This document shows, piece by piece, positions 8,039 to 46,799 of a stretch of 64,000 nt of DNA (positions are counted from its first letter, which is position 1; the number at the start of each line of letters is the position of its first letter). Both the position numbers and the translations under genes were made by a program. The stretch is taken from the NCBI GenBank assembly GCA_032718475.1, contig JAUCBJ010008167.1, positions 3,730 through 67,729 of the forward strand, written 5' to 3'. The notes below the pieces were generated by a model. It was not told the DNA's origin. It ran no database searches and saw only the letters and a list, made by a program, of their open reading frames with translations. The DNA is from Nemertoderma westbladi (taxonomy: Eukaryota > Animalia > Xenacoelomorpha).

Positions 8039-8941
8039 CCGCTCCATGAAAACAGGATATTATCGTGCATAAAATATACAGTTTTCACCAATAATCAATC
8101 AAACTATAGAATACTTAGGGCGTACTTACATATTTACAATTAAATTTCACAATACTTCCTTTCTACATAATGATTCGATACAAAATAATTACAAATTCAA
8201 ACTTTACGTATTTAAGGCTTTACTAAGTAAGTACAATATAAATCTAAATTAAATTCACCAATATAAATCTATTGCATCTCAATATTGCATAAATTCAAAC
8301 AATTACAAATACAAATAAATGAAAATCATAAGAAAGGCTCGCGAGTCTTCCATCTACTATTGCATCTCAAATATTGCATAAATTCAAATAATTACAAATA
8401 CTTTCGTGCCTAAATGTAGATTGCATAAGTTCGGAATAATTACAAATATGAGTCTTTCTAAGCACAAAACTTTCTAACTATAAACTTTCTAAATACAAAA
8501 TATAACACTGTACAAATGAAACTATAAGAAAGGCCCACGAGTCTTCCATCTACTCTTACTTTCTATTTCACTGTAAATACAAATACTGCTTATAAGATAT
8601 AAATTGCATAATATTCGGAACAATATAAATTGCATAAGTTCGGAATAATCACAAATATAAAATATAAATTCTTACAAAATATAAATCTTACTAAATATAA
8701 ATCTTACTAAATATAGATATAAACTGCATAAGTTTAGAATAATATAAACTCCTTTGCATCTCAAATATGAAACATAAATCTTTCAAATATGAGTTCCTTC
8801 TAAATATAAACTTTCTAAATTTCAAAAATTCGGAACAATACAAATTGCATAAGTTCAGATAAATATAAAAAATATAACTCAAATAAATCACAAATTCACA
8901 AGAAAGGCTCACGAGTCTTCCGTCCACCCTTGCCCTTCCTT

Positions 8942-12650: not shown

Positions 12651-13330
12651 AATTAGAGGTGTAGTTACATAATCATTACTACTAGAGGGAATACAACAGA
12701 GTTTGTAGTTAGTTGTGAGGAGACGTGAGAGTTTCGTCTGCCCTTTGGGCTCGACAACGCTCTAACCTCCTACCCATAGCCTAAGATCTAGGGTTTCTTT
12801 AATGACACGCTGCTTCTTATCTAAAATTTTTGCCGAAATAAAAACGAATTTGGGCTAAACTGGCTGTGAGTCTAAAATACTCACTTTTTGATCCCAAACT
12901 ATTATCAGAAAATAAGCAGTCAAGAATTAGTAATAAATATAGGGGAGTCTATTTTGACGTAACTTATTGAAACAAGACCGTGTAAAATTTAATTTTAATT
13001 TTAATTAAAATTTAATTAAAATTTTAAGAAAGGCTCGCAAGTCTTCCTCTCTTGTTTCTCTAATTTTAAGTTCCACCCGACTGTACCCTGAAATCTATTC
13101 ACTGGAGAAAATTTTAAAAATTTTTCAAATCCAAATGGATTGTCTAAAATTTCGAAATGTCTCAATATTGTGAGTTCCAAGTAGAATTCCATTTCTTATA
13201 CCTACAAATCCCGCTCCTATGTGACACATAAGGGTACTACCCTCAATGTTCACATATAAAGACAATGGAATTCTACCGCTGTCCTTACTACAGTGTACAG
13301 GTACGTGGAAATCTATTTGTAAACTCCTAA

Positions 13331-15913
13331 TTATTTACTAATATTAGGTGGAGATTTGTAATCTCCAGACTCGTTACGAGTCTCTTCAAGAAGTACGAGA
13401 CGTTGTGTCGGTCTGTCAACTGTACGACCGTCAATTGTCCGTACCGTAACAGTTCTTGTCACTCCATCCATAGATGGATGTGTGGCTAAAATTACACCTG
13501 TTATCCAGAAGCGTCTTTTTAGATTCACTTCTGCTAACAGCACGTGATCTCCCGGCTTTAATGCGCGGGTGTTATTGTACCAGTTTGTTCTGGCAGAAAT
13601 AGAGTGCAAATAATGGTTTTGCCATATTTCCCAGAATTTGTTAGCTAGTAGTTGCGTGATTTTCCACGCTTTTCTACCGTAGCTATCGCCTTCTATTGGA
13701 ATAGAAATAGGCGTCAAAGTTGTCGGTGCCTGCATAAGCAGGTGTGCCGGTGTCAAAGCAAACTGAGATTGTTTGTCATCGGGTACTAATACTATTGGTC
13801 TAGTATTTAGTATTGCCTCGATTTCAACAAACAGTGTTGTCAGTTGGTCGTCTGTCAATATGTGGTTTACTGGAATGACCTTTGCCATGGCTGTCTTTAT
13901 AGATCTAATCAATCTCTCCCAGACTCTGCCTCTCCATGGACTATCTGGAGGATTAAACTTCCAAACAATCTTGTAAGGACGTAGTTCGTTTGAGATTTGA
14001 TCATGATCTAATTTCTTAAAGGCTCTAGCAATCTCATTTCGAGCACCAACAAAGTTTGTCCCTTGGTCTGAGTACAAGCATTTCACTAGTCCGCGTCTGG
14101 CGATAAATCGCCGCAATGCTAGTATAAACGCGTTGGTGGAAAGATCCATCACACGTTCAATATGAACTGCCCTACTGGACATATATGTGAAAATCAGTCC
14201 CCAGCGTTTTACTAGTATACGTCCACGTTTCGTATGTATGGGACCAAAGCAATCAATTCCAGTCTCTGTAAAAGGTGGTCTGAATGCTTGAAGTCGTGCT
14301 TGTGGAAGTTCACTCATTTCTTGGGTACCTATTCTAGAATGTACCTTTTTACAAATAATACACGTACGTGTCACTGAACTTATTGCTTTACTGGGTCTAA
14401 TTAATACAAATCTTGTACGTAAGTAGGAAAGACAGTGGTGTCTTCCAGCGTGTTTCAGATGAAAATGTGCGTCCAGTATCATTGCACGTTGTAGTTCGTG
14501 ATGCTGCGGTATTATTATTGGGTACCTAAAGTTTGTGTTAAAGTCAATGTTTTGAAGCCGAGATTTATGACAAATTAAGCCATTATAAATTATCGGACTC
14601 CAACTCAATATTGGTGACGACTTGATTGGTTGACCTTGATTTATAGATGTGAATTCGCGCGCGAAATATCGCAGTTGGTAATGGCGAATTAATTTAATCT
14701 CACACCTGTCAATCTCAGTCAATGTAAGTCGACGTGTGAAGTCTCGTTTGCCTTTAACGTATTGTACAAAACGTACAATCCACGCTAATTTTCGGCAAGC
14801 GTTTGTCCAAGAATCTGTTAGGTTTACAATACGGTCGACGTAAGTATTTGTGACGTCATCAGGTAAGTCAATGGAGATTTTGGAAGGTTTTGATTTACTA
14901 GAAGGGCCCATGGGTCCGCCGGTAGGTATTCCCTTGTTGACTGTTGATCCGTCCGGGTCTACAAGTAATTTGTCCTTCTTCGTCTTCTTACCTTGATTGT
15001 CAGTACTTTGTAAGTCGATCGTTAATGGTGGTTTGAACTCTATGGGGTCAGTGGGTTTCGGTAAACTTATTTTTCTGCCGATATTAATCCCGGGTCTCAC
15101 CATAGGTTGCAAGTTTGGTATGTCTCTTGAGCGCAGAGTAACACCTGTATTTACATTAGCGTAGGTACTACCCACATCTGTAATACATGAGGTTTCACCG
15201 TGCTTATGGTTGCTCAAGTGCGTCAAAATTGGTAGTTTGTCAATACAAGGCCGCTCCAATAGGGAAACTGCGGCTTTACTGTTAGTGAATACATTACTAA
15301 TGTCCGGTTGAACATTTTGTGACATGTCTGGTAAAATCTTTCGCGGAACATCCGGCGAAATATCTAGTGACGTGTCTGGCAAAACGTCTGGTTGACCGTC
15401 TAGTAACGTATCTGGTTGTTTGTCAATAGAAGGCCGCTCCAATAGAGAAACTGCGGCTTTACTATTTGTCAGTATGTTACTAGTGTCTGGTAGAACATTT
15501 TGTGATATGTCTGGCAAAATGTCTGGTTGGCCGTCTAGTAACGTGTCTGTTTGACCGTCTGGTAACGTGTCTGGTTGACCGTCTGGCGATATGTCTGGTG
15601 TAGAAAGGCTCGCAAGTCTTCCGTTCTTGACCTTTGAAGTTATCGCTTTCCATTTCGCCTTCGGTTTTTTCTTGAGTTTAGCCGCCGTCTTTTTCTTTGC
15701 TTTCCCTTTCTTTGGTTTTTTAATTTCCGCGTCTTTTGGGATAGTGTTAGACTTGTTGTCGTATAGTGGCGGCCAATGTTGTATTGATCCCTGCAAGAAC
15801 CGTGGTCCGTGCTGCCAAAATTCTTTGTTCTCCGGTTTACAAAATTCCTCAGGCATCATTCCTCGCGACGCAATATCGGCTGGGTTTTGTGGTCCGGGAC
15901 AATGTCGCCAATC
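13331..15913 (-). CDS. Pol C-terminus: end of RNase H region, low-complexity spacer, integrase (HHCC, DDE core, Pao-type C-terminal domain)
   Basis: Motifs DWRHCPGPQNPADIASRG, HFHLKH...CIICKK, GIDCFGP, SDQGTNF, WERLI and DGVTRTVTVRT..RPTQRLVLLE. In frame with the upstream pol ORF, separated only by TAA at 15916-15914. Confidence 0.92.
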   Translation of the reverse strand, partial: DWRHCPGPQNPADIASRGMMPEEFCKPENKEFWQHGPRFLQGSIQHWPPLYDNKSNTIPKDAEIKKPKKGKAKKKTAAKLKKKPKAKWKAITSKVKNGRLASLSTPDISPDGQPDTLPDGQTDTLLDGQPDILPDISQNVLPDTSNILTNSKAAVSLLERPSIDKQPDTLLDGQPDVLPDTSLDISPDVPRKILPDMSQNVQPDISNVFTNSKAAVSLLERPCIDKLPILTHLSNHKHGETSCITDVGSTYANVNTGVTLRSRDIPNLQPMVRPGINIGRKISLPKPTDPIEFKPPLTIDLQSTDNQGKKTKKDKLLVDPDGSTVNKGIPTGGPMGPSSKSKPSKISIDLPDDVTNTYVDRIVNLTDSWTNACRKLAWIVRFVQYVKGKRDFTRRLTLTEIDRCEIKLIRHYQLRYFAREFTSINQGQPIKSSPILSWSPIIYNGLICHKSRLQNIDFNTNFRYPIIIPQHHELQRAMILDAHFHLKHAGRHHCLSYLRTRFVLIRPSKAISSVTRTCIICKKVHSRIGTQEMSELPQARLQAFRPPFTETGIDCFGPIHTKRGRILVKRWGLIFTYMSSRAVHIERVMDLSTNAFILALRRFIARRGLVKCLYSDQGTNFVGARNEIARAFKKLDHDQISNELRPYKIVWKFNPPDSPWRGRVWERLIRSIKTAMAKVIPVNHILTDDQLTTLFVEIEAILNTRPIVLVPDDKQSQFALTPAHLLMQAPTTLTPISIPIEGDSYGRKAWKITQLLANKFWEIWQNHYLHSISARTNWYNNTRALKPGDHVLLAEVNLKRRFWITGVILATHPSMDGVTRTVTVRTIDGRTVDRPTQRLVLLEETRNESGDYKSPPNISK

Positions 15914-18900
15914 TTATTTTATTGAACGGTCTAGAATTTCCGCGCGACGGTTAGCTACGAATGTCTTGAATTCAAGTGTGTCGTTGTTTATGTAAAATAA
16001 AACCAACGTCGCGTCAGTCCAATAAAATATCTGTAAACTTGACTGTAGTTCTGTCTGTATAAGGTTCACGATGGTGGTTGACAGGGCTGCGGCTTGTAGC
16101 TCAGCTCGTGGTGTCGTCATATACTTAGTAGGCATTGTTTTTGCCTTAGAAGTAATGAGCGAAACATCGAATTCTTCTGAGTCTACTTGTCTGCGCAAGT
16201 ACGCTGCCACACCAAAGCCGTTGTCACTGGCGTCAGAAAAACAATGTAATTCCAAGTTGTCAGGAAATGTTGTTTGTAATGGAAAGTAGACTCTGGGTAT
16301 GGAATAATCCTCTAGCGAAGATAATTCTGCTTCCCAGGTTTTCCATAAGTCCACTTGGTCTGATGAGATCGGCTCGTCCCATGTCAGTCCATCCTTCCAA
16401 ATACTGCGCATATAAATGCGGGCTTGCAGTATTATTGGACTGATGAATCCTAATGGATCGAACAATCGTCTCAATTTTGACAAGCATGATCTCTTTGTCA
16501 GTGTGTTTTCTTGACTGTCCAGTCTCACCTTCACTCGAAAGTTGTCCGTGTTTGGGTCCCAAAAGAGCCCCAACACCTTGGTCGTCGGTAGTGGTTCGAA
16601 CTCTAGGTCTATGTCACCACCTCCACGCTCAGTCGTTCCGAATGAGTCTACTAATTCGGCACTGTTTGAGGCGAATTTGGTGAGGTTAAAACCTCCGCCC
16701 GCTAAGCAGTCCCGTAATTGATGTGCTACTGTTGTAGCACGTTCTACTGTGTCGCAACTCTGTAAACCGTCGTCGACGTAAAAGTCACGTTCCACAATCT
16801 TAATTATCTCTGGGTCATACATGTGTTTCTGATCCCTAGCGGCTTGCTTTAGGGCGTACATTGTACAGTTTGGGCTGTCCCTGGCACCGAAAACGCGAAC
16901 TTGCATTTGGTAAGTCGCCGGTGGTAGACTTAAGTCTCCTTCCGGGTACCAGAGGAACCTCAAACTGTCTCTGTCTCGCTCTAACGCTCTCACTTGGTGA
17001 AACATAGCTTCGACGTCGCAAGTAAAAGCTACTTGACGCTGACGGAAGCGCATAATCACCCCCATAAGATAATTATTCATGTTTTGTCCATCCATCAACT
17101 CGCTATTGAGGGACATTCCCTCAAACAGAGCCGCACAGTCATTGACTACACGTACTTTGTCTGGTTTGTCGGGGTGTCTCACGTAGTGATGTGGTAAGTA
17201 GTATGTCTGGTCTGTTACTATCTCTGGGTTAGTCATTCGGATAGCGTATCCCTTGGACAAATACGTCTCCATCTGAGTGTTGTACTGGAGATGGGCTTTC
17301 TCGTCCTTTAATAGACGTTGTCGTATTGAGTGTAGACGTCTTAAAGCTAGTGGATAGTTATTTATGAGTTTAGGACGTTGGTCACGCCATAGCATCCCTA
17401 CCTCATAATGTCCGTCCTCCGTCTGGCGGATAGTATCTTCCATGATCCTCAAAGATTGTTTCTCCTGTTCCGACATACATGGTTCGTAGCTACCAGGTTC
17501 AGCTGTATCTTGTTCTAACCACCTGATAGTCTTCTCCGTTAATTCTTTGTCCAATACAGCTTGTTCCACTTGATGATTTCTCAACGCGTCATCATCGATA
17601 TCGACGGGCATTGTTGAGGTTATTTGTGTAGGTAGACTCACAAGCCTTCCGGCGTTATCATCTGTCGTCGATGGAATCTCTGGCTGACTCGTCTTCTCCC
17701 CAAGTTCTAAACTCACCTGGTGGATTAGCTGCTCCTTGTGACTTATCATGCTAGTTACACGTCTGTCATGTTTTGTCGAATGTAGTGTAGTATGGTCCAC
17801 GTCGTGTGAAAAGGAATGAATTGAATTTGTAGTTAATAAACTACATGTACTTTGTACATCGTCTTCCTCGTCACTTATGTCCAGTGTGCGCACAGGCGCT
17901 CGAGTATACCACCCTATCGGCGTTCTACAGGCATATGCGTTTCCCACTATGACTGCCGATGGTCTGGTTTCCCACACTTGATGTAGGTTGAATTGGTCTG
18001 TCCCGATCAGCATTGCTACCGATCTATAATTGACAGGACATTCAGGTACACCAAGGTGTCTGAAATACTTACGGTCCTCCAAGGATTGTTCTGGGACAGG
18101 ACCTAGTAGGTTACTAAAGTCCTTGGTGGCCGCAAAAGTCAAATCCTTAAAGGGTAACAAAGACCTCTCCTTTTCGCTGTGTTGCGATTTTGGAAGAAGA
18201 GTGTCTAAGTTTAACTTAACTCGTGTCACTGGTATTGCAAGTTGTCCGTGCATACTACTTACGGTGTAACTGACGCGCTTACCTTGTCTGAGATCCGTCA
18301 CGACGTCAGCTATCTGCTCATCCACGTAGCTGTGAGATGAGGCTGAATCCAGGATAGCGTAGATTCTCTTGCACCCTTTTGTGCCAGTAATCTTAATCGG
18401 AATTACGCTGAATCCCTTTAGTTGGTCAGTCGTCAGAAGCACGATCGATGGTTGTTCGTCTCCATCGGAATATACGTCGTCGTCTTCTGACTCTTCGTCC
18501 GACGATCCGGATTGTTCTGAGAAACAATCCTTAATATGTGTCACGAAGGTTGGAGTCGTTTTCGATTCTCGATTCTTGTAGGCCGTATTACATTTCGCTG
18601 CTGCTTCCGGGTGTTCCCTGGCGAAGCGTTTTGTCGGCGTGTGGCTGTCTGTGTGGAGCAGACCGTCGTGGTTGCGTCCACAGGATGGACAAGTGTCGGT
18701 ATTTGGGCAATCTTTGCGAACGTGTCCGTGTCGCGTACACCGCCAACAAGAGTCCAATGGCCGTATCTGCAGCCGTCGTTCTTCCGAGTTTAACTCGCGA
18801 AACTGTTGACAACCTCTCAACTTGTGACCGATATACCGCTTGCCTAAATGCTCGCAGTATTGGCAGCCGCTGAAGTCGGTACTGAGTTGCTGTCTAGTCT

Positions 18901-20689
18901 GTTTTATCCCAATGGGCGCAGATACCCTACTACCGTCCGAGAATTGTCGTGTTTCCGTCGGTGTGGCGTAAGTGGCCGTCTTGGTGGATGTTGTCTGGGG
19001 TTTTTGTCGGTTTGAGGATGGCAAGGTGATTCCTTCTGCTACGATGTGCTGGTCAGTGTAGTTGGATCGAGTTTCTACCACTGCTTCCCTGGATATCAAA
19101 AGGTACACATCTTCCAGTTTTAAGAATCCACCCCGCTCTTCCCGCTGGTATTCGATCTTCCTCCACTCCCGACGAAGTCGATGGTGGAGTCGTCCTATGA
19201 TCTTTAATAGGACTGTAGGGGTATTCCCATAGTCAAGTTGTCCAATGGATCTCAAAGTAGTGATAGCGTTCTTTATTTCGTCAGCCAGTTTCAATAAGTC
19301 GACGGGTTTAGTAATAGCCCCTCCCTTACAGAGTTCCTCTATCACTGACCTGGCCATGCTGACTGTACCTCCGTATATCGAAGTTAAACGATCGTACGCT
19401 AGTTCGAAGGCGTCCGGTACACCAACGAAGGTCTCCGCCAAACGTTTAGGTTCTCCCGACAACGTTTGAAGCAGGTAATTAAACTTCTCCCGTGATGTAA
19501 AGGCGCACACGGCGATCTGAGATTCGATATAGTCTACGAAAGTGTGCCAGTGTTTTGAGCTACCGGAAAACTTAGGTGGTTGTTGCACCGGTAGTCCTTG
19601 TCTAGCTGCGAATTTCGCTATCTCCTCGGCAACGTTCAGAGTTTCGCGTCCTTGGTTGGTAATCTGGTTGATGTCCCTTCTTGGCGCTTTTCCCTGATAC
19701 GAAGTATTGGTCGATGGTATTTGTCTTTGCGGAATCTTTGGGTTTCTATTGTGTTCGAATTCGGAATTTCTCGGACTGTCGGTGTGAACTTCCTCCAAGC
19801 GTTCCTCGATCTGAGCCAACTTGTTAACAACTGGTCGCAGGATGTCGGCGAACTGTTGTGTACTGATTGCATCCGTTGGTTGTAACGCCTTCTGTGTTGG
19901 TGTATTCTGTGGAGGATTGTCGATAAATGAATTATCCGAACGCTCACGTTTACATTCGTCGGCCGCTCCTGTTCTAAATACCTCGCGTTCCGGGTAATCC
20001 GACTCGCTTGAAGTACTACTGTCGCCTGGATACGGTGGTCGACGTGCTCGTGTCCGTTGCGTCGTCCGAATTCTAACGTTTCGCTTTGGAACATCGTCCA
20101 CTGGTCTCCGTTGTTCGGTAGGCTCACAAGTCTTCCTCGAAGTCGTAGATTGCGATGTAAACTGGTTGAACGGTCGCGTATCCACTGGTCTCCGTTGTTC
20201 GGTAGGCTCACAAGTCTTCCTCGAAGTCGTAGATTGCGATGTAAACTGGTTGAACGGTCGCGTATCCACTGGTCTCCGTTGTTCGGTAGGCTCACAAGTC
20301 TTCCTCGAAGTCGTAGATTGCGATGTAAACTGGTTGAACGGTGGTCGGACGACAGCTTTTGAATCCAAAGGCCTTGTAGGCCTAAACGTCATTGGGTATT
20401 CGTAGTGCGTAACTGGTTTAGGTGTCAAAGGTGGACTCACCTGTTTTGTCGTTAGTAGTGCAGGTCCAGTCAACAAACTACTACGATCTGTAATCGGTGG
20501 GTTACTTACCTTGACTTTCAAAATAGGCGACGACGTTGCTCTTGACGGTATGAATTTGTCTGGAATAACCAACCTGTGTTCCGTCGCACCATGGATAGGA
20601 GAAATATCACTACTACCCGCAATCGAAACAGGTTCCTTAGTCATAATTGGTGCAAACATAGGAGTTACTTGTGGGAATCGTTGACACAA
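15914..20689 (-). CDS. Gag-Pol polyprotein: Pao gag, zinc knuckles, aspartic protease, reverse transcriptase, RNase H
   Basis: Motifs PPKFSG (gag), CWRCTRHGHVRKDC and CPSCGRNHDGLLH, ILDSAS (protease, about 18350), YLPHH..KVRVVND, FYVDD (about 16775), FDPLGF, FSDAS and TPRAEL. Confidence 0.95.
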   Translation of the reverse strand: MCQRFPQVTPMFAPIMTKEPVSIAGSSDISPIHGATEHRLVIPDKFIPSRATSSPILKVKVSNPPITDRSSLLTGPALLTTKQVSPPLTPKPVTHYEYPMTFRPTRPLDSKAVVRPPFNQFTSQSTTSRKTCEPTEQRRPVDTRPFNQFTSQSTTSRKTCEPTEQRRPVDTRPFNQFTSQSTTSRKTCEPTEQRRPVDDVPKRNVRIRTTQRTRARRPPYPGDSSTSSESDYPEREVFRTGAADECKRERSDNSFIDNPPQNTPTQKALQPTDAISTQQFADILRPVVNKLAQIEERLEEVHTDSPRNSEFEHNRNPKIPQRQIPSTNTSYQGKAPRRDINQITNQGRETLNVAEEIAKFAARQGLPVQQPPKFSGSSKHWHTFVDYIESQIAVCAFTSREKFNYLLQTLSGEPKRLAETFVGVPDAFELAYDRLTSIYGGTVSMARSVIEELCKGGAITKPVDLLKLADEIKNAITTLRSIGQLDYGNTPTVLLKIIGRLHHRLRREWRKIEYQREERGGFLKLEDVYLLISREAVVETRSNYTDQHIVAEGITLPSSNRQKPQTTSTKTATYATPTETRQFSDGSRVSAPIGIKQTRQQLSTDFSGCQYCEHLGKRYIGHKLRGCQQFRELNSEERRLQIRPLDSCWRCTRHGHVRKDCPNTDTCPSCGRNHDGLLHTDSHTPTKRFAREHPEAAAKCNTAYKNRESKTTPTFVTHIKDCFSEQSGSSDEESEDDDVYSDGDEQPSIVLLTTDQLKGFSVIPIKITGTKGCKRIYAILDSASSHSYVDEQIADVVTDLRQGKRVSYTVSSMHGQLAIPVTRVKLNLDTLLPKSQHSEKERSLLPFKDLTFAATKDFSNLLGPVPEQSLEDRKYFRHLGVPECPVNYRSVAMLIGTDQFNLHQVWETRPSAVIVGNAYACRTPIGWYTRAPVRTLDISDEEDDVQSTCSLLTTNSIHSFSHDVDHTTLHSTKHDRRVTSMISHKEQLIHQVSLELGEKTSQPEIPSTTDDNAGRLVSLPTQITSTMPVDIDDDALRNHQVEQAVLDKELTEKTIRWLEQDTAEPGSYEPCMSEQEKQSLRIMEDTIRQTEDGHYEVGMLWRDQRPKLINNYPLALRRLHSIRQRLLKDEKAHLQYNTQMETYLSKGYAIRMTNPEIVTDQTYYLPHHYVRHPDKPDKVRVVNDCAALFEGMSLNSELMDGQNMNNYLMGVIMRFRQRQVAFTCDVEAMFHQVRALERDRDSLRFLWYPEGDLSLPPATYQMQVRVFGARDSPNCTMYALKQAARDQKHMYDPEIIKIVERDFYVDDGLQSCDTVERATTVAHQLRDCLAGGGFNLTKFASNSAELVDSFGTTERGGGDIDLEFEPLPTTKVLGLFWDPNTDNFRVKVRLDSQENTLTKRSCLSKLRRLFDPLGFISPIILQARIYMRSIWKDGLTWDEPISSDQVDLWKTWEAELSSLEDYSIPRVYFPLQTTFPDNLELHCFSDASDNGFGVAAYLRRQVDSEEFDVSLITSKAKTMPTKYMTTPRAELQAAALSTTIVNLIQTELQSSLQIFYWTDATLVLFYINNDTLEFKTFVANRRAEILDRSIK
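20098..20340 (-). repeat. 84-bp tandem repeat (about 2.9 copies) in gag
   Basis: Encodes the repeated 28-aa unit PFNQFTSQSTTSRKTCEPTEQRRPVDTR. Confidence 0.95.
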
Positions 20690-22149
20690 TCTTTTACTAA
20701 TTGTCGTTCCCGTCCGGGTGCTCCTACGCTTCCTTCCTTCTTCCGTTCCTGAATTTGGCGATGTCTTACCTCTATCTGGTCCAAGTCATGTCCGTCTCGA
20801 GATCTCATTGATCGATCGCGGGCCTTTTGATCCAGATCTTCCTCGGCGTTCGCTAATTCTCTCGCCTTCTTCTCGAGTTCGAAATGAAGTTTAGCTGTCT
20901 TCTCTCGTTGTTCCGTTTGTTGTCGTTGCGCCTCAAACTCCGCTTGTCGTATAGCGGATTGAGCTTTTATTTGCCGTGTTTTCATTTCGGCCCGTGCTTC
21001 CGAAACTAACCTTTCTCGCTTTAATTCTGCCGTTTGTCGCTCTAATTCTGCCGCTGCCGTTTGTCGCTCTAATTCTGCCGCTGCCGTTTGTCGCTCTAAT
21101 TCTGCCGCTGCGTTTCGTTGCGCTAAATCAGCCGCTGCCGTTCGTTGGGCAATGTCTACCTCTAACCTTTCTACTTCAGCTGCTTCTAATTCAGCTTGTT
21201 CCTGTAGATGAGAGATTCTCGCTACGTTCGCAACGCGTAGCTTCTCTTCCTCTACTGCTGCCTGCATCACTAGAAGTTGAGCTTGTTCCTCCATTTCTCG
21301 TCGTTGTCGGTAGAATTCTTGCTGTTGTCGAGCAACTTCTGACGTGACCATACTTCCCTCGCCGATTTCGCTACGAATACTTACCAACGATTGATTTAGT
21401 ATTCCTGGTACTAGTTCGATTTGTGCGAGTGAAGTTTCCCTCGTATATTCCGGCACGGTTTCCAAATCGCCGACGTCTTCGCCGCACATACGTAAGTGGT
21501 CCGTCAGATGTTTCAATTGTCCATCTAGTCGGTACAGTTCCTGTTCTTCCTCGGGCTGCAATAATTCGTCCGAAACTGACTCACCTAACAACTGGTCCGC
21601 TTGTTCCTGTTGTATCTGCCTAATCGTCGACTTAAACTGAATCAGTTTCTCTCTAGCGATCATTAGTTTCTCGAGGATTCTAAGTTGTGTGTCCATATCC
21701 TGTCTCTGTCTAGCTAGATCTTGTAGACTGATAAGGTTATCTACGGACTTATGTACTCTACTTTGTACTCTAACCTGGAGGGTGTAGAACTCAAACCGAG
21801 ACATCGGAGCGGTCAACTCGTCTAATATGCGTTGGCCTTCTCCAATACTCCTGGTAATATGCGCCATGTAACCGCCGACGCTTCTAACCACACTCTCCTG
21901 GCTTCCTGCTGAACTTACCATGTCCGTTTCCCTGTATCTAGGTTGCGGAACAGTTAGAAAGTCCTCGGTCCTGCCGTCGCCTCGTACTACGGCATCCGGT
22001 ACTCCCGTTGGATGTACTGGTGACGCACACGGTGTAGGTTCGGTAGGCTCGCGAGTCTTCCCCTGTAGATCTTCCGCTGCTGACTAATCCGCGTCACATG
22101 AGTCATAGTCGGTAGGTGTATTCTTCGTATAGTCTTGTTTGTCACTCAT
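20665..22149 (-). CDS. Gag N-terminal coiled-coil region (ORF1), interrupted by one in-frame TAG
   Basis: E/Q/R/A-rich helical sequence with AAAELERQT repeats. The ATG at 22149 is in frame with 21921, with a TAG at 22086-22084. It joins the next ORF by a -1 shift between about 20785 and 20665. Confidence 0.8.
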
Positions 22150-22951
22150 TTCGGTAGTTGTAAGTCAAGTAAAGTGAGTGTCAAAGTATCAAACTTACCG
22201 TATTTTATCTAAACGGTACTAATTACAGTCATATAAAATTAGCCTACCGGCCGATTTTATAGCAGATGGATAAAATTAGCCTAAACGGCCAATTTTACAG
22301 CAAATAAATGTCACGGTATAAGTATATAATAAAATTAGCCTAGCGGCCAATTTTATAACAAATAAATCGGATAACGATATGCGTTATCAAAAGGTAAATA
22401 AAATACAATAATACGGACTAATTCAGCAATGAACAAAGAAATCGTACGGAATGCATAAATACTTGAGACAGTGGAACCCACAATAATTTTAACTAATACG
22501 GTAATGCCTAACTTATGTATGCAACTTTTCGAATTCACCCACTCCAATAATTCTCCAGAAAAACAGATTCCCAGATACAAACCGGACGTGAACCTTTCCG
22601 TTTTTAACGTTGCGGACGAAGCGCGATTTTCCCAACCAAAGTTGTTGAGTTATCTATCTCCCAAACTTGCTAAACACGGTCTTGCTCCCGTTACAGTCTA
22701 GAAATGAGTTCTGAATCCTGAAAAACAAAAGAGTTAGGTTTTACTTTTACGAAAATTTTTGTACCGGTACAATATGGTATTTAAACCCTTTTAAACACCG
22801 GTATTCAATTCCAAAAAATATTTTACACGCGGTTCAAATCAAATTTTATTTCAAAAAAAAATTAGCACTTAGCTAATCAAATATAAATTTTTACCTCAAA
22901 ATACAAAATTTTCAAATAACTTTAGTCCTACCGAACCGTAGTTCAGTAAAA

Positions 22952-23037
22952 CATATTCCTACTATTTTAGGAAATATGTTAAATAATACCATATTCCTAC
23001 TATTATAGGAAATATGTTAAAATAATCATATTCCTAC
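22952..23037 (-). promoter_or_regulatory. Non-canonical primer-binding region: three copies of GTAGGAATATG (37-38 bp period) abutting the 5' LTR
   Basis: Plus-strand CATATTCCTAC at 22952, 22990 and 23027. No TGG-starting tRNA PBS is present. Confidence 0.6.
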
Positions 23038-24950
23038 TATTAGAAGAGACAGTAACAATACCTGCAATATCCTACTGTAAAGTTTGTGAATCAAATAATA
23101 AATCCGGCCTTCTCACCAAAACAGTAAACTCTAAGTAAGCGAATATATTGCAGTATCGATCTCTTATAACCGGTGAGGCAGAAAACAGTCTACGAGCAGA
23201 CAAACTTCGATAAAACAAAATCCCGCGCAGCGAATCCTAAAATCAGGCTGACTCACTGACGGACTAAGGGGCTCGTATACTTTGCCGCGGTGTGATTTAT
23301 ATGGTTGGGCTAAAGAGACGCTAGCTAGGTACAGAGGCAGAGATTTGGAGATGTCTAACTAGCGGGCAAAGCGCAGTACGGACAAAAGTTAATTTTATAT
23401 ATTTTGAGGTGTAAATAATTTCTAACGCGCGTGTGTGATTCTGAACAGTCAAAGCAGTTTTGCTCCTTCATATATATAATTACTGGGTACGGTGTACATT
23501 TTACGAATATTCTAATTTTGTAACTTGTAGGTCCAATACTCACGAATGATAAGGTTCCTTCCCCTCTTGCGTATTTCCAGGACTCAAATTCAGGCATAAG
23601 GTTAATGCTACGCCCAGAATTCGGCAATTTTAATTTACCAGGCCCCTAATACTAAGAAGAAATGTGTTAGTTTACTACAGTAGGCGTACGGTTACAAATA
23701 GCTATCCTGGCTCTTATCTAGAATTTTAGTCACCTAGGTAGGCTGGGTAACTTCCTATCAGGACGTTGGCGGGGACACGGTAGATGTTAGTATATCCCTA
23801 ATAGCCTCAATTTATTTGCGCCTAGTCGTAAACTGCCCTACCGCCTGAACGGTACAATCCTAATTCAGGTGAAACACAGCAACCCTCCTAGCCTACAAGT
23901 TCTAATGCAATGGATACCGTTGTACTACAAATAGTCGCAGACGCACCTGTACTTAGCAAGAGTTAGGCGTACAGTTTGCTGCACCCTACCAATGTGTATG
24001 CTTTGTACCGGTGTGCCTACGTCCTATCTGCGTACTAGTATCTGCCTGCTCTTTCCCTCCCCCCGTAGGAATATGAAGGTCTACTGCGGTTTTTTCCTGA
24101 ATTAAAACAGTACAGTCCCTAAGATGTAATTTTAGGCGTACAGCGTGTCACTACTTCTACCTTTGATCTTTGGTCTTACGCTTAGGTAGCAAGGCGTCGA
24201 ACGCTGTCTAACCTTTCAGGCGATGGGCGAATAACTGAGATGGTATTGCGGGTTGTCTCCTGTCTACATTCCCTTGATGTTCCCGTTCATTGCTGCGGCC
24301 CGATCTCTAGCCGGCCATCCTGTTCCTAAGTGTGTTCACCATAGTGAATCATGGTGAAAAGAAAAGCAGGTAGCGGTATTTCTGAATTTATTGCAGATAA
24401 TAATACAAAATGTAATCTGAAAACTAATGACAGAATAAACAAATATCAGATAACTCAGAATAATTGTGAGAGATAGATATACTGAAGATTGAGAAGTGAA
24501 CTAATGAACGAAATCGCACCTTTTATACCAAATTTGTGCCGCAATCAATCGAGAAAATTCTCGATTGTTCTATAGGTTCTAACAGGTTTTTAAAGGTAGC
24601 TATTGGTCCAGCTAATATATAACTTGCACGACATTGGTTACAATCTAATAACTGCAGTCTCATTGGTTAATCTAGGTACAGACAAATGCAATTTAATTTG
24701 TAGCGGTCAATTTAAATGAGTTGAAATTCTGTACAAAAAATAATTCGCACTTACTAGGATTCGAACTCAATACCTACTACACATATAATTTCCAACGCTC
24801 TACCGACTGAGCTACTGAACCACTTGACTAAAGATCGTACAATAGATATAACAAATACAAATGAGGACTCAAAGCAATCTTTTAGCAAAGTTAATTCGAA
24901 TAAAAATAAAATTTTGAAAATCCACGGCATTTAGGGAATATAATTCTATA
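23038..24950 (-). repeat. 5' LTR (1913 bp)
   Basis: Direct repeat of 6126-8038, flanked by the TSD GGTAG. Confidence 0.95.
24387..24666 (-). promoter_or_regulatory. LTR Pol II promoter (three CCAAT boxes, TATA box) and poly(A) signal
   Basis: CCAAT at 24666, 24637 and 24606 (about 30-bp spacing), TATAAAA at 24527-24521 and AATAAA at 24392-24387. All are conserved in the solo LTR. Confidence 0.6.
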
Positions 24951-39426: not shown

Positions 39427-40680
39427 TTTTGCTGCAAATGCTAACTGTATACAGAAATGTTATATTTTTATCAGATGATCGTTCAATTTCAGTGCATCTA
39501 ATATTTGTACTTCACGTGTATTGAATAGCCCATAAAGTTGTTTATATATGGCCTAACAACAGTTGTGGTATTACTGAACTCTCAATGGTAACTACCGAAG
39601 CCGGTATTCTTGGGTCTTATTGGCTGTTCTATTTCACTGAGCCTTGTTTGTACCCTTATATAATCAGTGTCCACCCTGACACTATAGGCTTAACCTGATG
39701 CCATCTTCAGGTACTTTACATCAATTTTATAGCCTAGCAAGTCATGTTAGTTACAACGGCTTGCATTATTTTACCTTATTACTTGCAATTTGTCACTTGT
39801 CATTTGCAATTTAACATCTTATTGCTTATTATTTGCGTTTACTATTATTGCATTACTTGTTAATGAATATACTGGACCAGAGATCAAACCAACTCGATTT
39901 CCACACGGTGAGTGCATATTGCGCCCTGTCAGTAATAGATTCGGTTCAATTAATGCGAGTGTGTGTGTCTATAGTACTGCAATATTATTCCCAACTAGTA
40001 AACATCATCTACCAACTATGCAAGTGATACGAGTAAACTGTGCGCTTATCACGCACTAAGCCAATGTAGTGTCCTACCTGTGATATATATAAGTCATACG
40101 TACATTTACTATTACTAGCCAACAACACAATATAATGGAATGGTTTACACGTAACTATCGCGCCCCCTTGAAGCAGTTTGTAAGTGCTGAGGCTTTATAC
40201 TTACAGTAACTAATTCTAGATCCCGTTAAGATATATATATTAGATAATATATATATACCCCCACACTTTCGTGAGTGTTCCTGCTGTGCGGCAGGTATCC
40301 CAAGGCATTGATAGCACTCATAAGAACTACATAAAGACTTGCTGTGGCATCTTTACGTTAGCCTCCCATAAACGCCTTGACACTACTACTATGATCGGCA
40401 TGCTGCATTGCAGCTGCATTTTTAAGAATGCTGTGCCGGCTTATCGACAAAATTGCACCACCACAACTCCCTATCACCCATGACATTTGCTAGATCATCC
40501 GCATCTTCAAGGCCAGTGTCCTTTAAGATGCGTCTCTAGAAAGTCATGGGCTGTCCACCATGCTTAGTCACTCCATGGGGCTGCCAAAGTACAAGATTAT
40601 GCACTGGCTGGCCCTCATGGCGAAAGCAATGTCCTGCAAAGCGGAGGCGATTTTGTTCTAGCGTCAAGCTTGGGGGAACC
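39427..40680 (+). repeat. ~1.25-kb direct repeat, copy 1 (includes the 3' end of the RTE fragment)
   Basis: Near-identical to 44265-45520. Related copies at about 55860-57590 and 57651-58905. Confidence 0.9.
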
Positions 40681-40860
40681 AAATTCCAGACTCAAACCAA
40701 ACGCATTTGCCTAGGCATACTCAGCGCTTATTTCGACCCCATAGGATTCAGCAGCCCAGTTATATTGCGGGCTCGAGACCTCGTTCCACGTATGTGGATG
40801 GAGAATGATAGTAGAAATACGCGTCAGCGCGGATGGCCTGCAAAACGACTTGCCTGCTAG
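40681..40860 (+). pseudogene. BEL/Pao pol fragment (RNase H/connection region)
   Basis: TKRICLGILSAYFDPIGFSSPVILRAR..RMW aligns with TKRSCLSKLRRLFDPLGFISPIILQAR..SIW in the main element. Confidence 0.75.
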
Positions 40861-42472
40861 AAATCGCACAAGAAGAATCTGGCAGATACGGCAAGCAAGA
40901 AGTCAAGCTGGTCTTGACTTACTTTTATTTTAATGGTTAACTCCTAAGTGACATTTGAGTGCGCTGCATATCACACTCAAGCGTGGGAATGGGTTATGTG
41001 AAGTTAACCACTGACCCCCCTTTTTCAAAAATATGCCATATATTCAGCTTGACAGGCTAACAAAATTTATCCCTATATCGCTTCGTCCCCAAAAACAATA
41101 GGACTATGGGATATTTCATGATAAATCGTTTTATACATGGTGCATGAAACTTGATCTTAGTCCTAGAGCAACTATGGACAAAATGACATAAACCATAGGA
41201 CTGTGGGATGTTTCATGATAAACAATTCTATACACAGTGCATGAAACTTGATCTCAGTTCTAGAACATTTTAGAATATTACGAATGGGAGGTTCATGATA
41301 AGCCGTTATACACACGACGCATGAAACCTGAACCCAACTTCAATAACATGTTGCGATAAGTCATTATTAAACATGACGCGCAGCCAACCAAAACCCTTTA
41401 ACTGTATGATGACGGTGATAATACAATTGAATGCGGAATCCATATCCTTTATTTCGGTTAAACCAAACTCTGGGTAAATTCTGGAGACGGCACGCCACTT
41501 CTTGTATAACCCGAGTATAAAGGGAGTAACAAATAAAATTATAATAAACCGTAATAGTCATGATAAGTGATTATTAAACATTGCGCATGACAATAACAAA
41601 CCTTGGTCTTGCTGTATTATGACGGCCCAATCCCACTTGAATGCCGAGTCTTAATTATTACTCCCGCTTCTTGTCAATTGCCAGAGTACAGTAAGAGATG
41701 TCAATTATTAGTTGGCTTGACACTTCAAGAACCAACATAGCTCGATATTGATTAATACAATATCACATCCATATAAATCCGTTCAAGTCACTGTAATAAT
41801 GAGCATTACGGGAACGGTCGCGGTCCATTTGTGAATTTCTCCCAAGGGATGACTAAACTTAGTTTAAGTCACCAGATCACGTAAATATTTATTATGTTAT
41901 TTATTAATAGCCTAATACCACCAACCCTTAATTATGACATTAATACTACAATAGTATAAACACCAATACTATACAGACAAACACTACATTCAAATAATAA
42001 AAAATTAGTGAGTATCCATGGAAACTAATATCAACATTCGGGAAATAGTAGGTTTGTGATAAACATTTGTGTGTATTGTAATATTGTGTGCTTTAGTTTG
42101 CATGACAGCATGAATAGCAACTGTTCTACGTGTGTTTACTGTAGCGAACCGAAACCCTATTGCTGACTAATTGCAATTGCACTACAATACTAGATACCCC
42201 GACAAATAGCCCTTGGATAAGACCGGCCTCGAGCTTTCCCTGCGCGTTAGCCGTTGCGTCATCCACCCGTTCTTCCACGCCTTTTGGATAGGGAATTGAC
42301 GTAGCGCGCGCTAATGTGGCCAGGGGAGGGCTTGGGTCCGTGTCGGGCGGGGGATGGAGGGCGGCTCAGCATCGCCGGCCCTATACAAACTCAAGTTGTC
42401 ATAACAATTATATCGACTCATTGGTTTGCTTTGTTGAATTATCAATATATTTATACATTGTTGATAACAATT

Positions 42473-43419
42473 ATGGATATTTCTAATGATGACTCAATAT
42501 ATAATATTGATACACAGCGACCACGACTCTCGGAGGAATATAACCGGTATATAAAACTGGTATATAAAACATTTATGGATAACCGTCGCCTCATCTATTG
42601 GAACTTGGATGTACCCTACCTTGAAGATAATTTAAGATATGTCGAACAAACACAAATATATGTGACACGCCTCATTATGGATTTATAAGAATAACACATG
42701 GAGAACCCGATTCATTGGATACTTCATGGACACCAGTAGAACTGACCACCGAAGTGGCTAACGCTGAATGGTTACATACAGTTAATGCTATTCACAGTTA
42801 TGGTGTTACGATCTATGATAACGAAGACTCCATACTGGATCCTGAGCTCAGTTCAACTCGGTTGATTCATATCAGCGGCCTCACTGGAGCCACACACGTT
42901 TTTTTACGTATACTTGTCATGGCACCAATAGCGTTTTCCCTGCCTTGACTGCCTATCAACGCCGTGCGAGACATCAACAGTTTGTTAAAGCGGAGGCTTA
43001 TGTCAATGACGCGAATCGACACCCAGTCGTGGGAATAGATGCAGCATTATTGCCGCAACCCGTACTGGACATTTTCTCGGACGAACCAGTTTATAAACTC
43101 GGTTTAGCCATATATCGGGACTTGAATGATGATTTACCTATCGTCCATGACATACCATTAACATTTAACATTAACATTTCTTAAAACCACCCTTGCCAAT
43201 ATTGACAGTCAGTTCTATGTGAAATCACTGTCTCAGCGAGAGCTACGTCGCACCGCAGCGGATGAGCTAGCCAGCGGTTACTTTGCTATATTCCGATACG
43301 CATGTATTTCAAATCTCCATCAATCGGTGATCGAGAGAAGCCTGTTACCAAACCTGGTTTCTCGGTTGGACAAATGTAAACTGACGCCCCCAACTAAACG
43401 GAGGAACCAATCCACCTAG
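42473..43419 (+). pseudogene. Frameshifted homologue of the retroelement exonuclease-like accessory ORF
   Basis: EWLHTVNAIHSYGVTIYDNED..RLIHISGLTGATHVFLR and IDAALLPQPVLDIFSDEPVYKLGLAIYRDLNDD align with EWNRTFRSFQENGYMFYDNEG..KTIQIRAADGVLHVFSR and IDARMIPKMVRNMILDKTVVKIGSGVREDLISD. Confidence 0.72.
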
Positions 43420-44264
43420 AAGCGACCTCAGTAGCCGCCTCTGTCGTGCTCACCCGGTCTGGTGTCGTTACCCAAACTATCCACTCTGGATCAGTTGCTG
43501 TGCGCAAGCTCTTAGCCGCTCCTCTGGAACCGGAAATCCGTCGACCGGCTGTCGTCTCGCGCGCCACGAAACCGGCTGAGTTCCCGTCCTTACCTGGCAC
43601 CTCCACTGGAACATACACTGATCGTCCGAGTTCTCCAATGCCTGACGCGGTGGATATACATCCAGACATGTCCCAACGAGACGCTTTCGAGCGACGACCT
43701 GACATTACCCGTGCCCGACGCCCGCAAAGAAGAGGAAACGACTCTTTATGCGTATTACACCCAAACACCCCAAACGAAAGCGATAATATAAGATTATTAT
43801 TAGTTAGCCTGTCAAACTTTATAAAATCCCCGTAACTGTTCGCAAACTATCATATTTGTAAATAATGAACAATATGTACTTCTTATAGTGAGATTGAAAT
43901 TCAGTACATTAGTACCTAAAGAGATAATATGACTCATTACTTATTTACGTACCTAAAGAGTATCTGTAAATACATCAAACTCTAGTATTATTTGAAAGAT
44001 TGTTTAATACTTACATAGTTTCACCGGAAGTGACTTAACGAAATTTATTGTTTATATATGAGTAAGCTGACCTACCTTAATTAACTTCGTTTAATTTAGT
44101 TGGATTGTTTATCACATTTAATTGTATGTAGCGAGTATTTGATATCAACATGATTTGATTGCTGAAGGTTCGTATATACCTCTTTCGATGTAATTTTAGA
44201 AAAAACTCAACATTGTGTCATTAACACATTGTGTTGTGAACTTGTACGTGATTTTAGGGAACGG

Positions 44265-45520
44265 TTTTGCTGCAAATGCTAACTGTATCAGAAATCTTAT
44301 ATTTTTATCAGATTATCGTTCAATTTCAGTGCATCTAATATTTGTACTTCACGTGTATTGAATAGCCCATAAAGTTGTTTATATATGGCCTAATAACAGT
44401 TGTGGTATTACTGAACTCTCAATGGTAACTACCAAAGCTGGTATTCTTGGGTCTTATTGGCTGTTCTATTTCACTGAGCCTTGTTTGTACCATTATATAA
44501 TCAGTGTCCACCCTGACACTATAGGCTTAACCTGATACCATCTTCAGGTACTTTACATCAATTTTATAGCCTAGCAAGTCACGTTAGTTACAACGGCTTT
44601 GCAATATTTTACCTTATTACTACTTGCAACTTGTCACTTGTCATTTGCAATTTAACATCTTATTGCTTATTATTTGCATTTACTATTATTGCATTACTTG
44701 TTAATGAATATACTGGACCAGAGATCAAACCAACTCTATTTCCACACAGTGAGTGCATATTGCGCCCTGTCAGTAATAGATTCGGTTCAATTAATGCGAG
44801 TGTGTGTGTCTATAGTACTGCAATATTATTCCCAACTAGTAAACATCATCTACCAACTATGCAAGTGATACAGGTAAACTGTGCGCTTATCACGCACTAA
44901 GCCAACGTAGTGTCCTACCTGTGATATATATAAGTCATACGTACATTTACTATTACTAGCCAACAACACAATATAACGGAATGGTTTACACGTAACTATC
45001 GCGCCCCCTTGAAACAGTTTGTAAGTGCTGAGGCTTTATACTTACAGTAACTAATTCTAGATCCCGTTAAGATATATATATTAGATAATATATATATACC
45101 CCCACACTTTCGTGAGTGTTCCTGCTGTGCGGCAGGTATCCCAAGGCATTGATAGCACTCATAAGAACTACATAAAGACTTGCTGTGGCATCTTCAGGTT
45201 AGCCTCCCATAAACGCCTTGACACTACTACTATGATCGGCATGCTGCATTGCAGCTGCATTTTTAAGAATGCTGTGCCGGCTTATCGACAAAATTGCACC
45301 GCCACAACTCCCTATCACCCATGACATTTGCTAGATCATCCGCATCTTCAAGGCCAGTGTCCTTTAAGATGCTTCTCTAGAAAGTCATGGGCTGTCCACC
45401 ATGCTTAGTCACTCCATGAGGCTGCCAAAGTACAAGATTATGCACTGGCTGGTCCTCATGGCGAAAGCAATGTCCTGCAAAGCGGAGGCGATTTTGTTCT
45501 AGTGTCAAGCTTGGGGGAAC
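44265..45520 (+). repeat. ~1.25-kb direct repeat, copy 2
   Basis: Near-identical to 39427-40680. Confidence 0.9.
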
Positions 45521-46106
45521 CAATGAGACACCTCCAATGTTTATAGTGTCTGGTTGGAGATATGTGCATTGTACTTGACACAATGAACGCGGTGTAGCAT
45601 TCTTGTGACTGTGCCATCCAGAGATTTGGTGTCCTCAGCAGTTAGAGCCCAGCATGGACTCCCATAGAGGAGTACTGGAACTACTGCTGCTCTAAATAAT
45701 CGGATCTTAAGTTTCCGATTAATTCTCGTTGACTTCCAAATCCTGGAAAGCCTATTCAAGGCTGCCCATGCCTTTCCCTTACGTATTCGAAGGTCCTCAC
45801 CTGACTTCCGGATCCATGATCCCAGGTAACAGAAGTCATCCACATGCTCAAGCATACCATCTTTTGAGCTTTTGCTCATCCGATCAGAGACTTGCTGAGG
45901 ACTTTCAAAGTTAACTGTCAAAATTTTGGTCTTTCTGGAGTTAATAAAAAGACCAACACTAGAAGCAGCATGTTCTAATGATCTGAGGAGCCGTTGGGCT
46001 CCCTCTAGTGATTCTGAGAGTACTCCTAATTCATCAGCAAAGTCTAGGTCAGTTAGGTACTTGGCAGGATTTCCTCGACTTCTGGAGCCAGTAGGTGGAG
46101 TTATCA
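45290..46106 (-). pseudogene. 5'-truncated RTE-clade LINE (RT C-terminal half)
   Basis: Motifs LTDLDFADELGVL, VGLFINSRKTKIL, FCYLGS, KIRLFRAAVVPVLLYGSPCW and RLRFAGHC. Confidence 0.85.
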
Positions 46107-46799
46107 TCACCCCGAATCCAGCACCCGTGAACCGGACACTGGGACCGGGCTGCCACCGGGCTGCCACCATTGCCGAAACCCGGCTCCTCCATAAATATTG
46201 CCATTCGGACATTCCCTTGTCCGGAACTGCCGCCACCTGTTGCGGGACACCTCCGCCATATTGGACACCATGAGCTCGGGAATCGCCACCAGGGACACCA
46301 TGCCGGGCACGGAACCCTCACCCAAGTGTGTCCGTTGGTCCACCACCTTGGTGACCACCAAACCCATCACCACACGCGCCACTCCCACTCCTGATCGCTA
46401 CCAACGGCGACAACGGCACCCCCCAGCGGCTCTGGAGTACAACCCATAATTCACGGACTGAAACTGAAACTGAATGTAATTTGAGCCTTGCTCGTGCTGT
46501 GCGATGGACCGACCACGCCAGCACCCGGACTTTCGGACACTTACGGACATTATGATAGCCCCAGAAAATATTCCTGGGACTCGAAAGGGGATGGGGGCTA
46601 TTATACATACAGTAGTTTATTACGCCTTGCGACCCATAGATAGCGCTAGGCTAGCATTATTATTATCTTTAGGTTTCTTGCTGTAGTACTGTACACCTAA
46701 GCCTATATGAAGCCACGGCCCTACTGTAGTTGGTGTAGTGGTACCATATATTATATGCGATATATGCATGATACACTAAGGAATGAAACAGGAAATTGA

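What the first reader, a model, noticed from the sequence alone, without database searches (positions are those of the whole stretch)
42473..43419. A second, highly diverged copy of the exonuclease gene hidden in short frameshifted ORFs near a Pao pol fragment
Seen: consecutive small ORFs (42473-42688, 42715-42948, 42945-43184, 43219-43419) join into a homologue of the 704-aa ORF. Matches are YDNED vs YDNEG, HVFLR vs HVFSR, IDAALLP vs IDARMIP, YKLGLAIYRDL vs VKIGSGVREDL and NIDSQ vs YVDTR. A Pao pol fragment lies about 1.6 kb upstream on the same strand (40681-40860). Inference: the exonuclease is an old, lineage-wide part of a Pao clade, because the acidic motif residues are kept despite low overall identity.
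Basis: partly seen in the sequence, partly recalled or inferred. Interest (0 to 1): 0.8.

Follow-up and report, generated by a model that had tools for sequence, protein, structure and literature searches.

The report
Broken second retrotransposon-borne exonuclease gene
A broken, multi-copy gene next to the terminal repeat of a jumping gene is a distant relative of the extra gene carried by a complete BEL/Pao retrotransposon 30 kb away, so two very different element families in this genome likely carry the same kind of predicted RNA-trimming (WRN/Mut-7-like) nuclease gene, an arrangement described before in rotifer retrotransposons.

Summary
Partly confirmed. Two of the four short ORFs are a real, decayed homologue of the 704-aa ORF. 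Bases 42715-43133 align to aa 441-560 at 38/120 identity, score 92 against a shuffle maximum of 59 (0 of 500). The first and last ORFs show no homology. NIDSQ/YVDTR is a false match: it lies beyond an internal deletion, where one other copy has 476 letters in place of 90. The shared region is likely a WRN/Mut-7-type DEDDy exonuclease: ESM Atlas score 0.94, targeted profile alignment E 3e-5. Only the ExoII part has statistical support and both folds failed. The gene lies between a 114-bp Pao RNase H fragment and a purine tract plus LTR (44265-45223) unrelated to the first element's LTR, and it is multi-copy in other runs. So a second, internally deleted LTR family, probably Pao, carries it. 'Old and lineage-wide' is not shown: no homologue was found outside this organism, and 3 of 4 catalytic acidic sites can be read at best. 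The closest precedent is the DEDDy ORF3 of rotifer Juno/Vesta elements. My searches found no Pao case in print.

The parts
42715..42903 (+). Piece B: homologue of 704-aa ORF aa 441-500, with the presumed ExoI motif (YDNE at 42814) and the two following strands
   Evidence: 0 of 1000 shuffles. ExoI naming rests on motif and spacing; it is not significant alone against the WRN-like profile
42904..43034 (+). Unalignable linker that contains the B-to-C frame break; longer than in the 704-aa ORF
   Evidence: Some other copies differ in length at 42899-42912, and contigs in 3 runs fit on both sides of 42904-43029 but not within it
43035..43133 (+). Piece C: homologue of aa 528-560, the ExoII region (K-x-G...D-L)
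   Evidence: 0 of 1000 shuffles. Ranks 2nd of 1986 six-frame segments against a bacterial WRN-like HMM, E 0.71
43158..43185 (+). Internal deletion junction; the rest of the exonuclease domain (likely including ExoIII) is missing from this copy
   Evidence: Loose ends at 43158 in X1, X2 and X3; the X5 contig has 476 letters for 90
42473..42688 (+). Piece A: probably the 5' part of the same gene, not alignable to the 704-aa ORF; its frame is disturbed by a length difference among copies at 42548-42566
   Evidence: One X2 contig matches 42460-42664 letter for letter, so this stretch is not an assembly error
43185..43835 (+). Pieces D and E: remnants of the 3' part of the accessory gene, with a second deletion near 43455-43460 relative to the X5 contig; Pro/Arg/Ser-rich tail
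   Evidence: No significant match to the 704-aa or 569-aa ORF. The X5 contig jumps from record position 1313 to 1989 here
42200..42400 (+). GC-rich patch (61%) just upstream of the ORFs; possible internal promoter (inferred)
   Evidence: Composition only
40690..40803 (+). Pao pol fragment (Peptidase_A17 / RNase H region); no integrase remnant follows it
   Evidence: Pfam E 3.1e-5; 19 of 38 identical to the first element's pol; integrase test reached by 241 of 300 shuffles
44256..44264 (+). Purine tract directly before the LTR, similar to that of the first element
   Evidence: ends GGGAACGG against GGAGCGG
44265..45223 (+). 3' LTR of the second family (begins TTTTG, ends GACA)
   Evidence: A solo copy at 57652-58905 has the same ends and a 5-bp target duplication GTTTA; no similarity to the first element's LTR
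39427..40682 (+). Duplicate of the LTR (39427-40382) plus 300 bp of the LINE 3' end that flanks the right LTR; a product of rearrangement
   Evidence: LTR part 20 mismatches and 5 gap positions against 935 matches; flank 5 mismatches in 300; CTACT on the left and after both LTR copies
45224..46317 (-). LINE (RT fragment) into whose repeat tail the LTR element inserted
   Evidence: Pfam RVT_1 E 1.7e-4; very high depth in runs
10536..12650 (-). 704-aa accessory ORF of the complete Pao element; C-terminal WRN-like exonuclease region at about aa 440-670
   Evidence: Atlas 0.94, 24 of 30 hits with PF01612; hhalign E 5.2e-4
8942..10651 (-). 569-aa ORF with three CCHC-type knuckles; overlaps the end of the 704-aa ORF by 116 nt
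6126..24950 (-). Complete 18.8-kb BEL/Pao element: LTRs 6126-8038 and 23038-24950, target duplication GGTAG
   Evidence: 11 mismatches in 1913; DUF1759, Peptidase_A17, DUF5641, Integrase_H2C2; flanks

Best explanation
The region is a dead, internally deleted copy of an accessory gene in the 3' slot of a second LTR retrotransposon family, likely BEL/Pao, and it is a distant homologue of the 704-aa ORF, with which it shares a predicted WRN/Mut-7-type DEDDy 3'-5' exonuclease domain. Shown: the homology, the place between a Pao RNase H fragment and a purine tract plus LTR, the multi-copy state, and the breaks and deletion. Inferred: in intact members the gene is read from its own subgenomic RNA and makes an RNA-binding exonuclease-fold protein, partnered with zinc knuckles as in the first element. 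Its most likely job is to trim or occupy RNA 3' ends that matter to the element, namely host silencing small RNAs or the element's own RNA and primer (about 0.5; untested). This copy cannot make the domain. The present layout most simply arose from duplication of the element's 3' part with 300 bp of flank, plus recombination between LTR copies (inferred).
For: Alignment score 92 against a shuffle maximum of 59, 0 of 500; 38/120 identity, collinear. ORF704 aa 410-690: Atlas 0.94, 24 of 30 hits carry PF01612, 178 and 173 shared features for the named rows. Against an HMM from 10 Bacteroidota stand-alone PF01612 proteins, ORF704 and piece C rank 1st and 2nd of 1986 six-frame segments (E 0.36 and 0.71). 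hhalign of the two-sequence profile gives probability 72%, E 3.3e-5, score 38.2 against a column-shuffle maximum of 18.7 in 40. LTR ends are defined by a solo copy with a target duplication, and a similar purine tract precedes both families' LTRs. Runs X1-X3 lay 271, 331 and 215 contig pieces on 42420-43480, of which 112, 136 and 100 are under 90% alike. One X3 contig with 16 other letters runs through 40690-40940, so the link from the Pao fragment into the downstream spacer exists in another copy too.
Against: No Pfam or phmmer hit to any exonuclease (EXD2 only at E 1.8). The ExoI part alone does not beat shuffles (10.5 against a mean of 11.2), nor does the C-terminal part (E 0.46). B-X-C alone scores 23.3 against a shuffle maximum of 21.7 in 60. 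Piece B alone gave fibronectin-like Atlas hits with under 170 shared features. Both folds failed (pLDDT 31 and 34). The Pao label of the second family rests on a 114-bp fragment beside a rearrangement junction, and no listed contig spans from it to the exonuclease. No RNA data.
Confidence: 0.75

Rival explanations
1. The homology is real, but the gene moved between families (template switching or separate capture), or the second element is a non-Pao LTR element into which a Pao fragment was patched. Sharing would then not mark an old Pao clade.
For: The Pao fragment is 114 bp and sits at a junction with LINE DNA. The two LTRs are unrelated. The second gene has room for only about 80 codons before the aligned part, against 440 aa in the first. 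Exchange of DEDDy ORFs between unrelated retroelements is argued in PMC5408684 (passages).
Against: Same order (pol, spacer, exonuclease, purine tract, LTR), a similar purine tract, and another copy continuous over 40690-40940.
Confidence: 0.2
2. The protein has the exonuclease fold but is a catalytically dead RNA binder, like EXD1 or Maelstrom. It would act by sequestering RNA ends rather than cutting. This is a variant of the mechanism, compatible with the best explanation's anatomy.
For: In all 10 reference proteins the ExoIII pattern is W-x11-YA-x-x-D. The 704-aa frame has W648-x11-Y660, with Arg at the Asp position.
Against: The presumed ExoI D and E and the ExoII D are kept in both copies at 32% identity. 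The ExoIII placement is by spacing only, and it falls near the overlap of the 704-aa and 569-aa ORFs, where the first copy may itself be broken.
Confidence: 0.3
3. The short ORFs are exons of an intron-containing host exonuclease gene.
For: The pieces lie in successive frames, and no RNA run could be laid to test splicing.
Against: Many diverged copies; length differences among copies at the breaks; a deletion through the domain; flanked by a purine tract and an LTR.
Confidence: 0.03
4. The breaks are assembly errors or programmed frameshifts of a working gene.
For: One break lies in a run of 7 T. The best runs hold only about a third of the sampled words.
Against: An X2 contig matches 42460-42664 exactly. 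Copies vary at the breaks. A deletion of several hundred bases removes the end of the domain.
Confidence: 0.03

Closest known systems
DEDDy exonuclease ORF3 of bdelloid rotifer LTR retrotransposons Juno and Vesta, also in Athena/Terminon retroelements (PMC5408684: abstract, passages and Discussion read; PMC6431247: passages)
   Same: An extra ORF after pol in an LTR element, with a DEDDy-type exonuclease, shared by several families of one genome; activity untested.
   Different: Here the carrier is BEL/Pao (certain for the first element, likely for the second); the only 'pao' string in that paper is an author name. The domain is far more diverged (no HMMER hit). The first element adds about 440 aa in front and a three-knuckle ORF behind. 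No sequence comparison with the rotifer proteins could be run.
Cellular WRN-exo / Mut-7 (Nibbler) / EXD2 and bacterial stand-alone PF01612 3'-5' exonucleases
   Same: ExoII region K-x-G-x4-[DER]-D and the ExoI-like [FY]-D-x-E followed by two strands.
   Different: ExoI-to-ExoII spacing is 78 aa in ORF704 against 52 in the 8 of 10 references where it was measured. No acidic residue at the presumed ExoIII site in the 704-aa frame; ExoIII deleted in the second copy.
Dada DNA transposons of Laccaria and Ectocarpus with a DEDDy domain (PMC3706591, passages)
   Same: A transposon-borne DEDDy exonuclease proposed to process 3' ends.
   Different: There the domain lies inside a DDE transposase of a DNA transposon and has all four acidic residues.

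Membership tests
DEDDy (WRN/Mut-7/RNase D-like) 3'-5' exonuclease | ExoI D-x-E at the end of a strand | tested here: inconclusive
   YDNE is present in both copies at a fitting place, but the N-part profile does not beat shuffles
DEDDy (WRN/Mut-7/RNase D-like) 3'-5' exonuclease | ExoII Asp after the K-x-G strand | tested here: met
   hhalign aligns it in both copies; two-sequence profile E 3.3e-5, score 38.2 against a shuffle maximum of 18.7. That this Asp is the ExoII catalytic residue is recalled knowledge
DEDDy (WRN/Mut-7/RNase D-like) 3'-5' exonuclease | ExoIII Y-x3-D | tested here: not met
   Second copy: region deleted. ORF704: Tyr at the right spacing from Trp but Arg in place of Asp (spacing only). 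So this is not filed as an active member
DEDDy (WRN/Mut-7/RNase D-like) 3'-5' exonuclease | DnaQ-like fold | tested here: inconclusive
   Folds at pLDDT 31 and 34; language-model features point to PF01612 at 0.94
DEDDy (WRN/Mut-7/RNase D-like) 3'-5' exonuclease | Metal-dependent 3'-5' exonuclease activity | not testable with these tools
   Needs an assay
BEL/Pao LTR retrotransposon (second element) | Pao-type pol (Peptidase_A17 region) | tested here: met
   Fragment only: 24.4 bits, cut-off 22.3; 40690-40803
BEL/Pao LTR retrotransposon (second element) | Gag, RT and integrase in order | tested here: not met
   Absent from this copy: a deletion derivative
BEL/Pao LTR retrotransposon (second element) | LTRs, purine tract and 5-bp target duplication | tested here: met
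   the left LTR copy is part of a rearrangement and the target lies in a simple repeat
BEL/Pao LTR retrotransposon (second element) | RT phylogeny within BEL/Pao, sister to the first element | not testable with these tools
   No RT in this copy and no whole genome held
BEL/Pao LTR retrotransposon (first element) | DUF1759 gag, Peptidase_A17, integrase with DUF5641, paired LTRs, target duplication | tested here: met
Rotifer Juno/Vesta DEDDy ORF3 group | Clusters with the rotifer retroelement DEDDy proteins in a tree | not testable with these tools
   Those sequences were not obtainable; no outside homologue was returned

The most novel reading that the evidence does not exclude
A whole branch of BEL/Pao elements in this animal lineage has long carried an exonuclease plus zinc-knuckle accessory gene, seen here in two and possibly three families (a third knuckle homologue lies at 596-883). 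It serves either as an anti-silencing factor that destroys or caps host small RNAs, or as the enzyme that matures the element's own primer: the complete element has no tRNA site but a 12-nt leader complementary to its LTR.
Probability: 0.2. Interest if true: 0.75.

Novelty: new variant of a known kind. Interest (0 to 1): 0.42.

Why it matters
It extends retrotransposon-borne DEDDy exonucleases from rotifer Juno/Vesta and Athena elements to BEL/Pao. It also shows that the gene is not a one-off capture in this genome: two families with unrelated LTRs keep the motif blocks at 32% identity, which suggests the gene was once kept by selection. What such enzymes do for a retrotransposon is an open question (PMC5408684, Discussion), and a young complete element (LTRs 99.4% alike) gives material to test it. 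The second copy itself is a dead fragment and adds comparative evidence only.

Tried and rejected
Outside homologues of the exonuclease region were not found: 1008 candidates, none at E 0.01; 0 hits at E 0.001 among 1.84 billion representatives; two-copy profile, 3634 and 119 candidates, none at E 1; metagenome contigs 0 of 55. At this divergence these blanks prove nothing. No related Pao pol loci were found in metagenome (0 of 19) or viral contigs. PDB sequence searches were not significant. Two structure predictions failed, so no fold search was run. Atlas on piece B gave fibronectin-like hits, rejected for low shared features. My idea that piece D matches the start of the 569-aa ORF was rejected (465 of 1000 shuffles), as was a match of 43185-44264 to that ORF (53 of 300). 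No RNA holder was listed. The first reference alignment held one wrong-frame sequence and was rebuilt; 13 polA and 2 RNase D-like references were used only, where the polA-only profile did not rank either ORF. A weak Pfam hit of piece B to a clostridial HA-17 domain (E 0.035, under the cut-off) vanished with other bounds and is taken as chance. Literature searches for a Pao-borne exonuclease found none. The library lacks most subscription papers and Repbase reports, and I did not open any supplements.

Full report
Setting. No whole genome is held. The window appears to be animal DNA (inferred from its LINE and BEL/Pao elements). A complete 18.8-kb BEL/Pao element lies on the minus strand at 6126-24950, with LTRs that differ at 11 of 1913 sites and a GGTAG target duplication. 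It has Pfam DUF1759, Peptidase_A17, Integrase_H2C2 and DUF5641, followed by two extra ORFs of 704 and 569 aa.

Observation. Plain tblastn gives two collinear hits, E 0.006 and 0.086. A frameshift-aware alignment scores 92, against shuffled proteins at 39.6 +/- 4.2 (maximum 59, 0 of 500) and 151 background tiles with a maximum of 46. It covers aa 441-560 against 42715-43133, 38 of 120 identical. The second and third ORFs are each significant (0 of 1000 shuffles); the first (39 of 1000, out of order) and fourth (910 of 1000) are not.

Other copies. Contigs of three coded runs of one organism (X2 and X3 are one sample) cover all 30 bins of 39300-45700. On 42420-43480 they lay 271, 331 and 215 pieces, 112, 136 and 100 of them under 90% alike, with up to about 20 contigs per site; X5 lays 2. 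Depth is not a copy number, but this is a diverged repeat family. One X2 contig equals the window over 42460-42664. Copies differ in length at 42548-42566 and 42899-42912, though only a minority of the depth shows the latter (118 of 894 in X1). Copies part from the window at 43156-43158, and the X5 contig has 476 letters where the window has 90, and about 670 more near 43455-43460; it has a 67-base gap of its own. So the window's copy lost the end of the domain, NIDSQ is not the counterpart of YVDTR, and the breaks look like decay rather than introns or assembly error.

What the protein is. Pfam, PDB and large-database sequence searches do not name it. ESM Atlas features for aa 410-690 give 0.94, with 24 of 30 hits in PF01612 clusters named Werner-like or 3'-5' exonuclease; the top row is an unnamed eukaryotic cluster. 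I then drew 10 stand-alone PF01612 proteins from 20 mostly Bacteroidota genomes. Their HMM ranks the 704-aa frame and piece C 1st and 2nd of 1986 six-frame segments, neither significant alone (E 0.36, 0.71). hhalign gives E 5.2e-4 for ORF704 (score 30.7 against a shuffle maximum of 20.3 in 60), E 0.004 for the second copy read with X at the break (23.3 against 21.7), and E 3.3e-5, probability 72%, for both together (38.2 against 18.7 in 40). This support is for the ExoII region. The ExoI part and the C-terminal part are not significant alone. By spacing, ORF704 has Trp and Tyr where ExoIII should be but Arg for the Asp. Both folds failed. I put the exonuclease fold at about 0.85-0.9, and catalytic activity as open.

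What carries it. 44265-45223 is an LTR: a solo copy at 57652-58905 has the same ends and a GTTTA target duplication, and a purine tract like the first element's precedes it. It is unrelated to the first element's LTR. The LTR plus 300 bp of flanking LINE is duplicated at 39427-40682 with about 2% divergence in both parts, so the left copy belongs to a rearrangement. After it comes a Pao RNase H-region fragment at 40690-40803 only, with no integrase remnant. The distance from the pol motif to YDNE is 2082 nt here against 5219 in the complete element; from YDNE to the purine tract, 1450 against 3204. One diverged X3 contig runs through 40690-40940, but no listed contig spans from pol to the exonuclease. 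The order matches the first element with deletions, so a second Pao family is the likely carrier.

How it likely works. Shown: this copy is broken and truncated. Inferred: intact members express an accessory protein from an internal promoter (a 61% GC patch lies at 42200-42400) that binds and perhaps trims RNA 3' ends. The candidate targets are host silencing RNAs and the element's own RNA. The complete element has a 12-nt leader complementary to its LTR instead of a tRNA site, which makes primer maturation a speculative option. A dead binder like EXD1 or Maelstrom is a serious alternative (0.3).

Known relatives. DEDDy ORF3s are described in rotifer Juno and Vesta LTR elements and Athena retroelements, with untested activity and signs of exchange between element types (PMC5408684: abstract, passages and Discussion read; PMC6431247: passages). 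Dada DNA transposons carry one too (PMC3706591: passages). Nine searches found no Pao case; PMC11599104 and PMC5603734 were seen only as listings, and supplements were not opened. Earlier scan notes report similar exonuclease-knuckle genes in gypsy-type elements of other genomes. They are unchecked, and they lower the surprise.

Verdict. The homology and the LTR link hold; the extent was overstated; the age and lineage-wide claims are untested. New variant of a known kind, interest 0.42.

Noticed in passing
window 596-883 (+), ORF 527-1198: A homologue of the three-knuckle region of the 569-aa ORF (aa 194-302; 26/96 identical; score 87, 0 of 300 shuffles), including conserved residues beyond the knuckles. 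Possibly the 3' accessory gene of a third family, cut by the window start. Cys-rich composition may inflate the score. No exonuclease match in 1-1600.
   Followed up: partly
window 23026-23037 (-) and first element LTR: The 12 bases directly after the 5' LTR are the exact complement of LTR position 875-886, and the leader does not begin with the TGG typical of tRNA sites. This resembles self-priming signatures noted in other scan reports.
   Followed up: partly
window 6126-24950: The complete Pao element has LTR ends TA...TA rather than TG...CA; the second family's LTR begins TT and ends CA. Gag-pol is split into three ORFs.
   Followed up: partly
window 10536-10651 (-): The 704-aa and 569-aa ORFs overlap by 116 nt close to the presumed ExoIII site; they may be one gene with a break. 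Not resolved.
   Followed up: partly
window 11330-12650 (-): The first 440 aa of the 704-aa ORF have no Pfam match above cut-off and hold a Cys/His pattern near aa 149-178; they have no counterpart in the second copy.
   Followed up: no
window 28086-29944; 55790-58905: An inverted, 85% identical solo LTR relative of the first family; a solo LTR of the second family at 57652-58905 with a 270-bp insert, and rearranged LTR pieces at 55790-57590.
   Followed up: partly
window 52229-53842 (+); 31140-31820 (+): An intronless 537-aa leucine-rich-repeat-like ORF (weak Pfam) and a 226-aa Cys-rich ORF with hydrophobic ends and no Pfam match; probably host genes.
   Followed up: no
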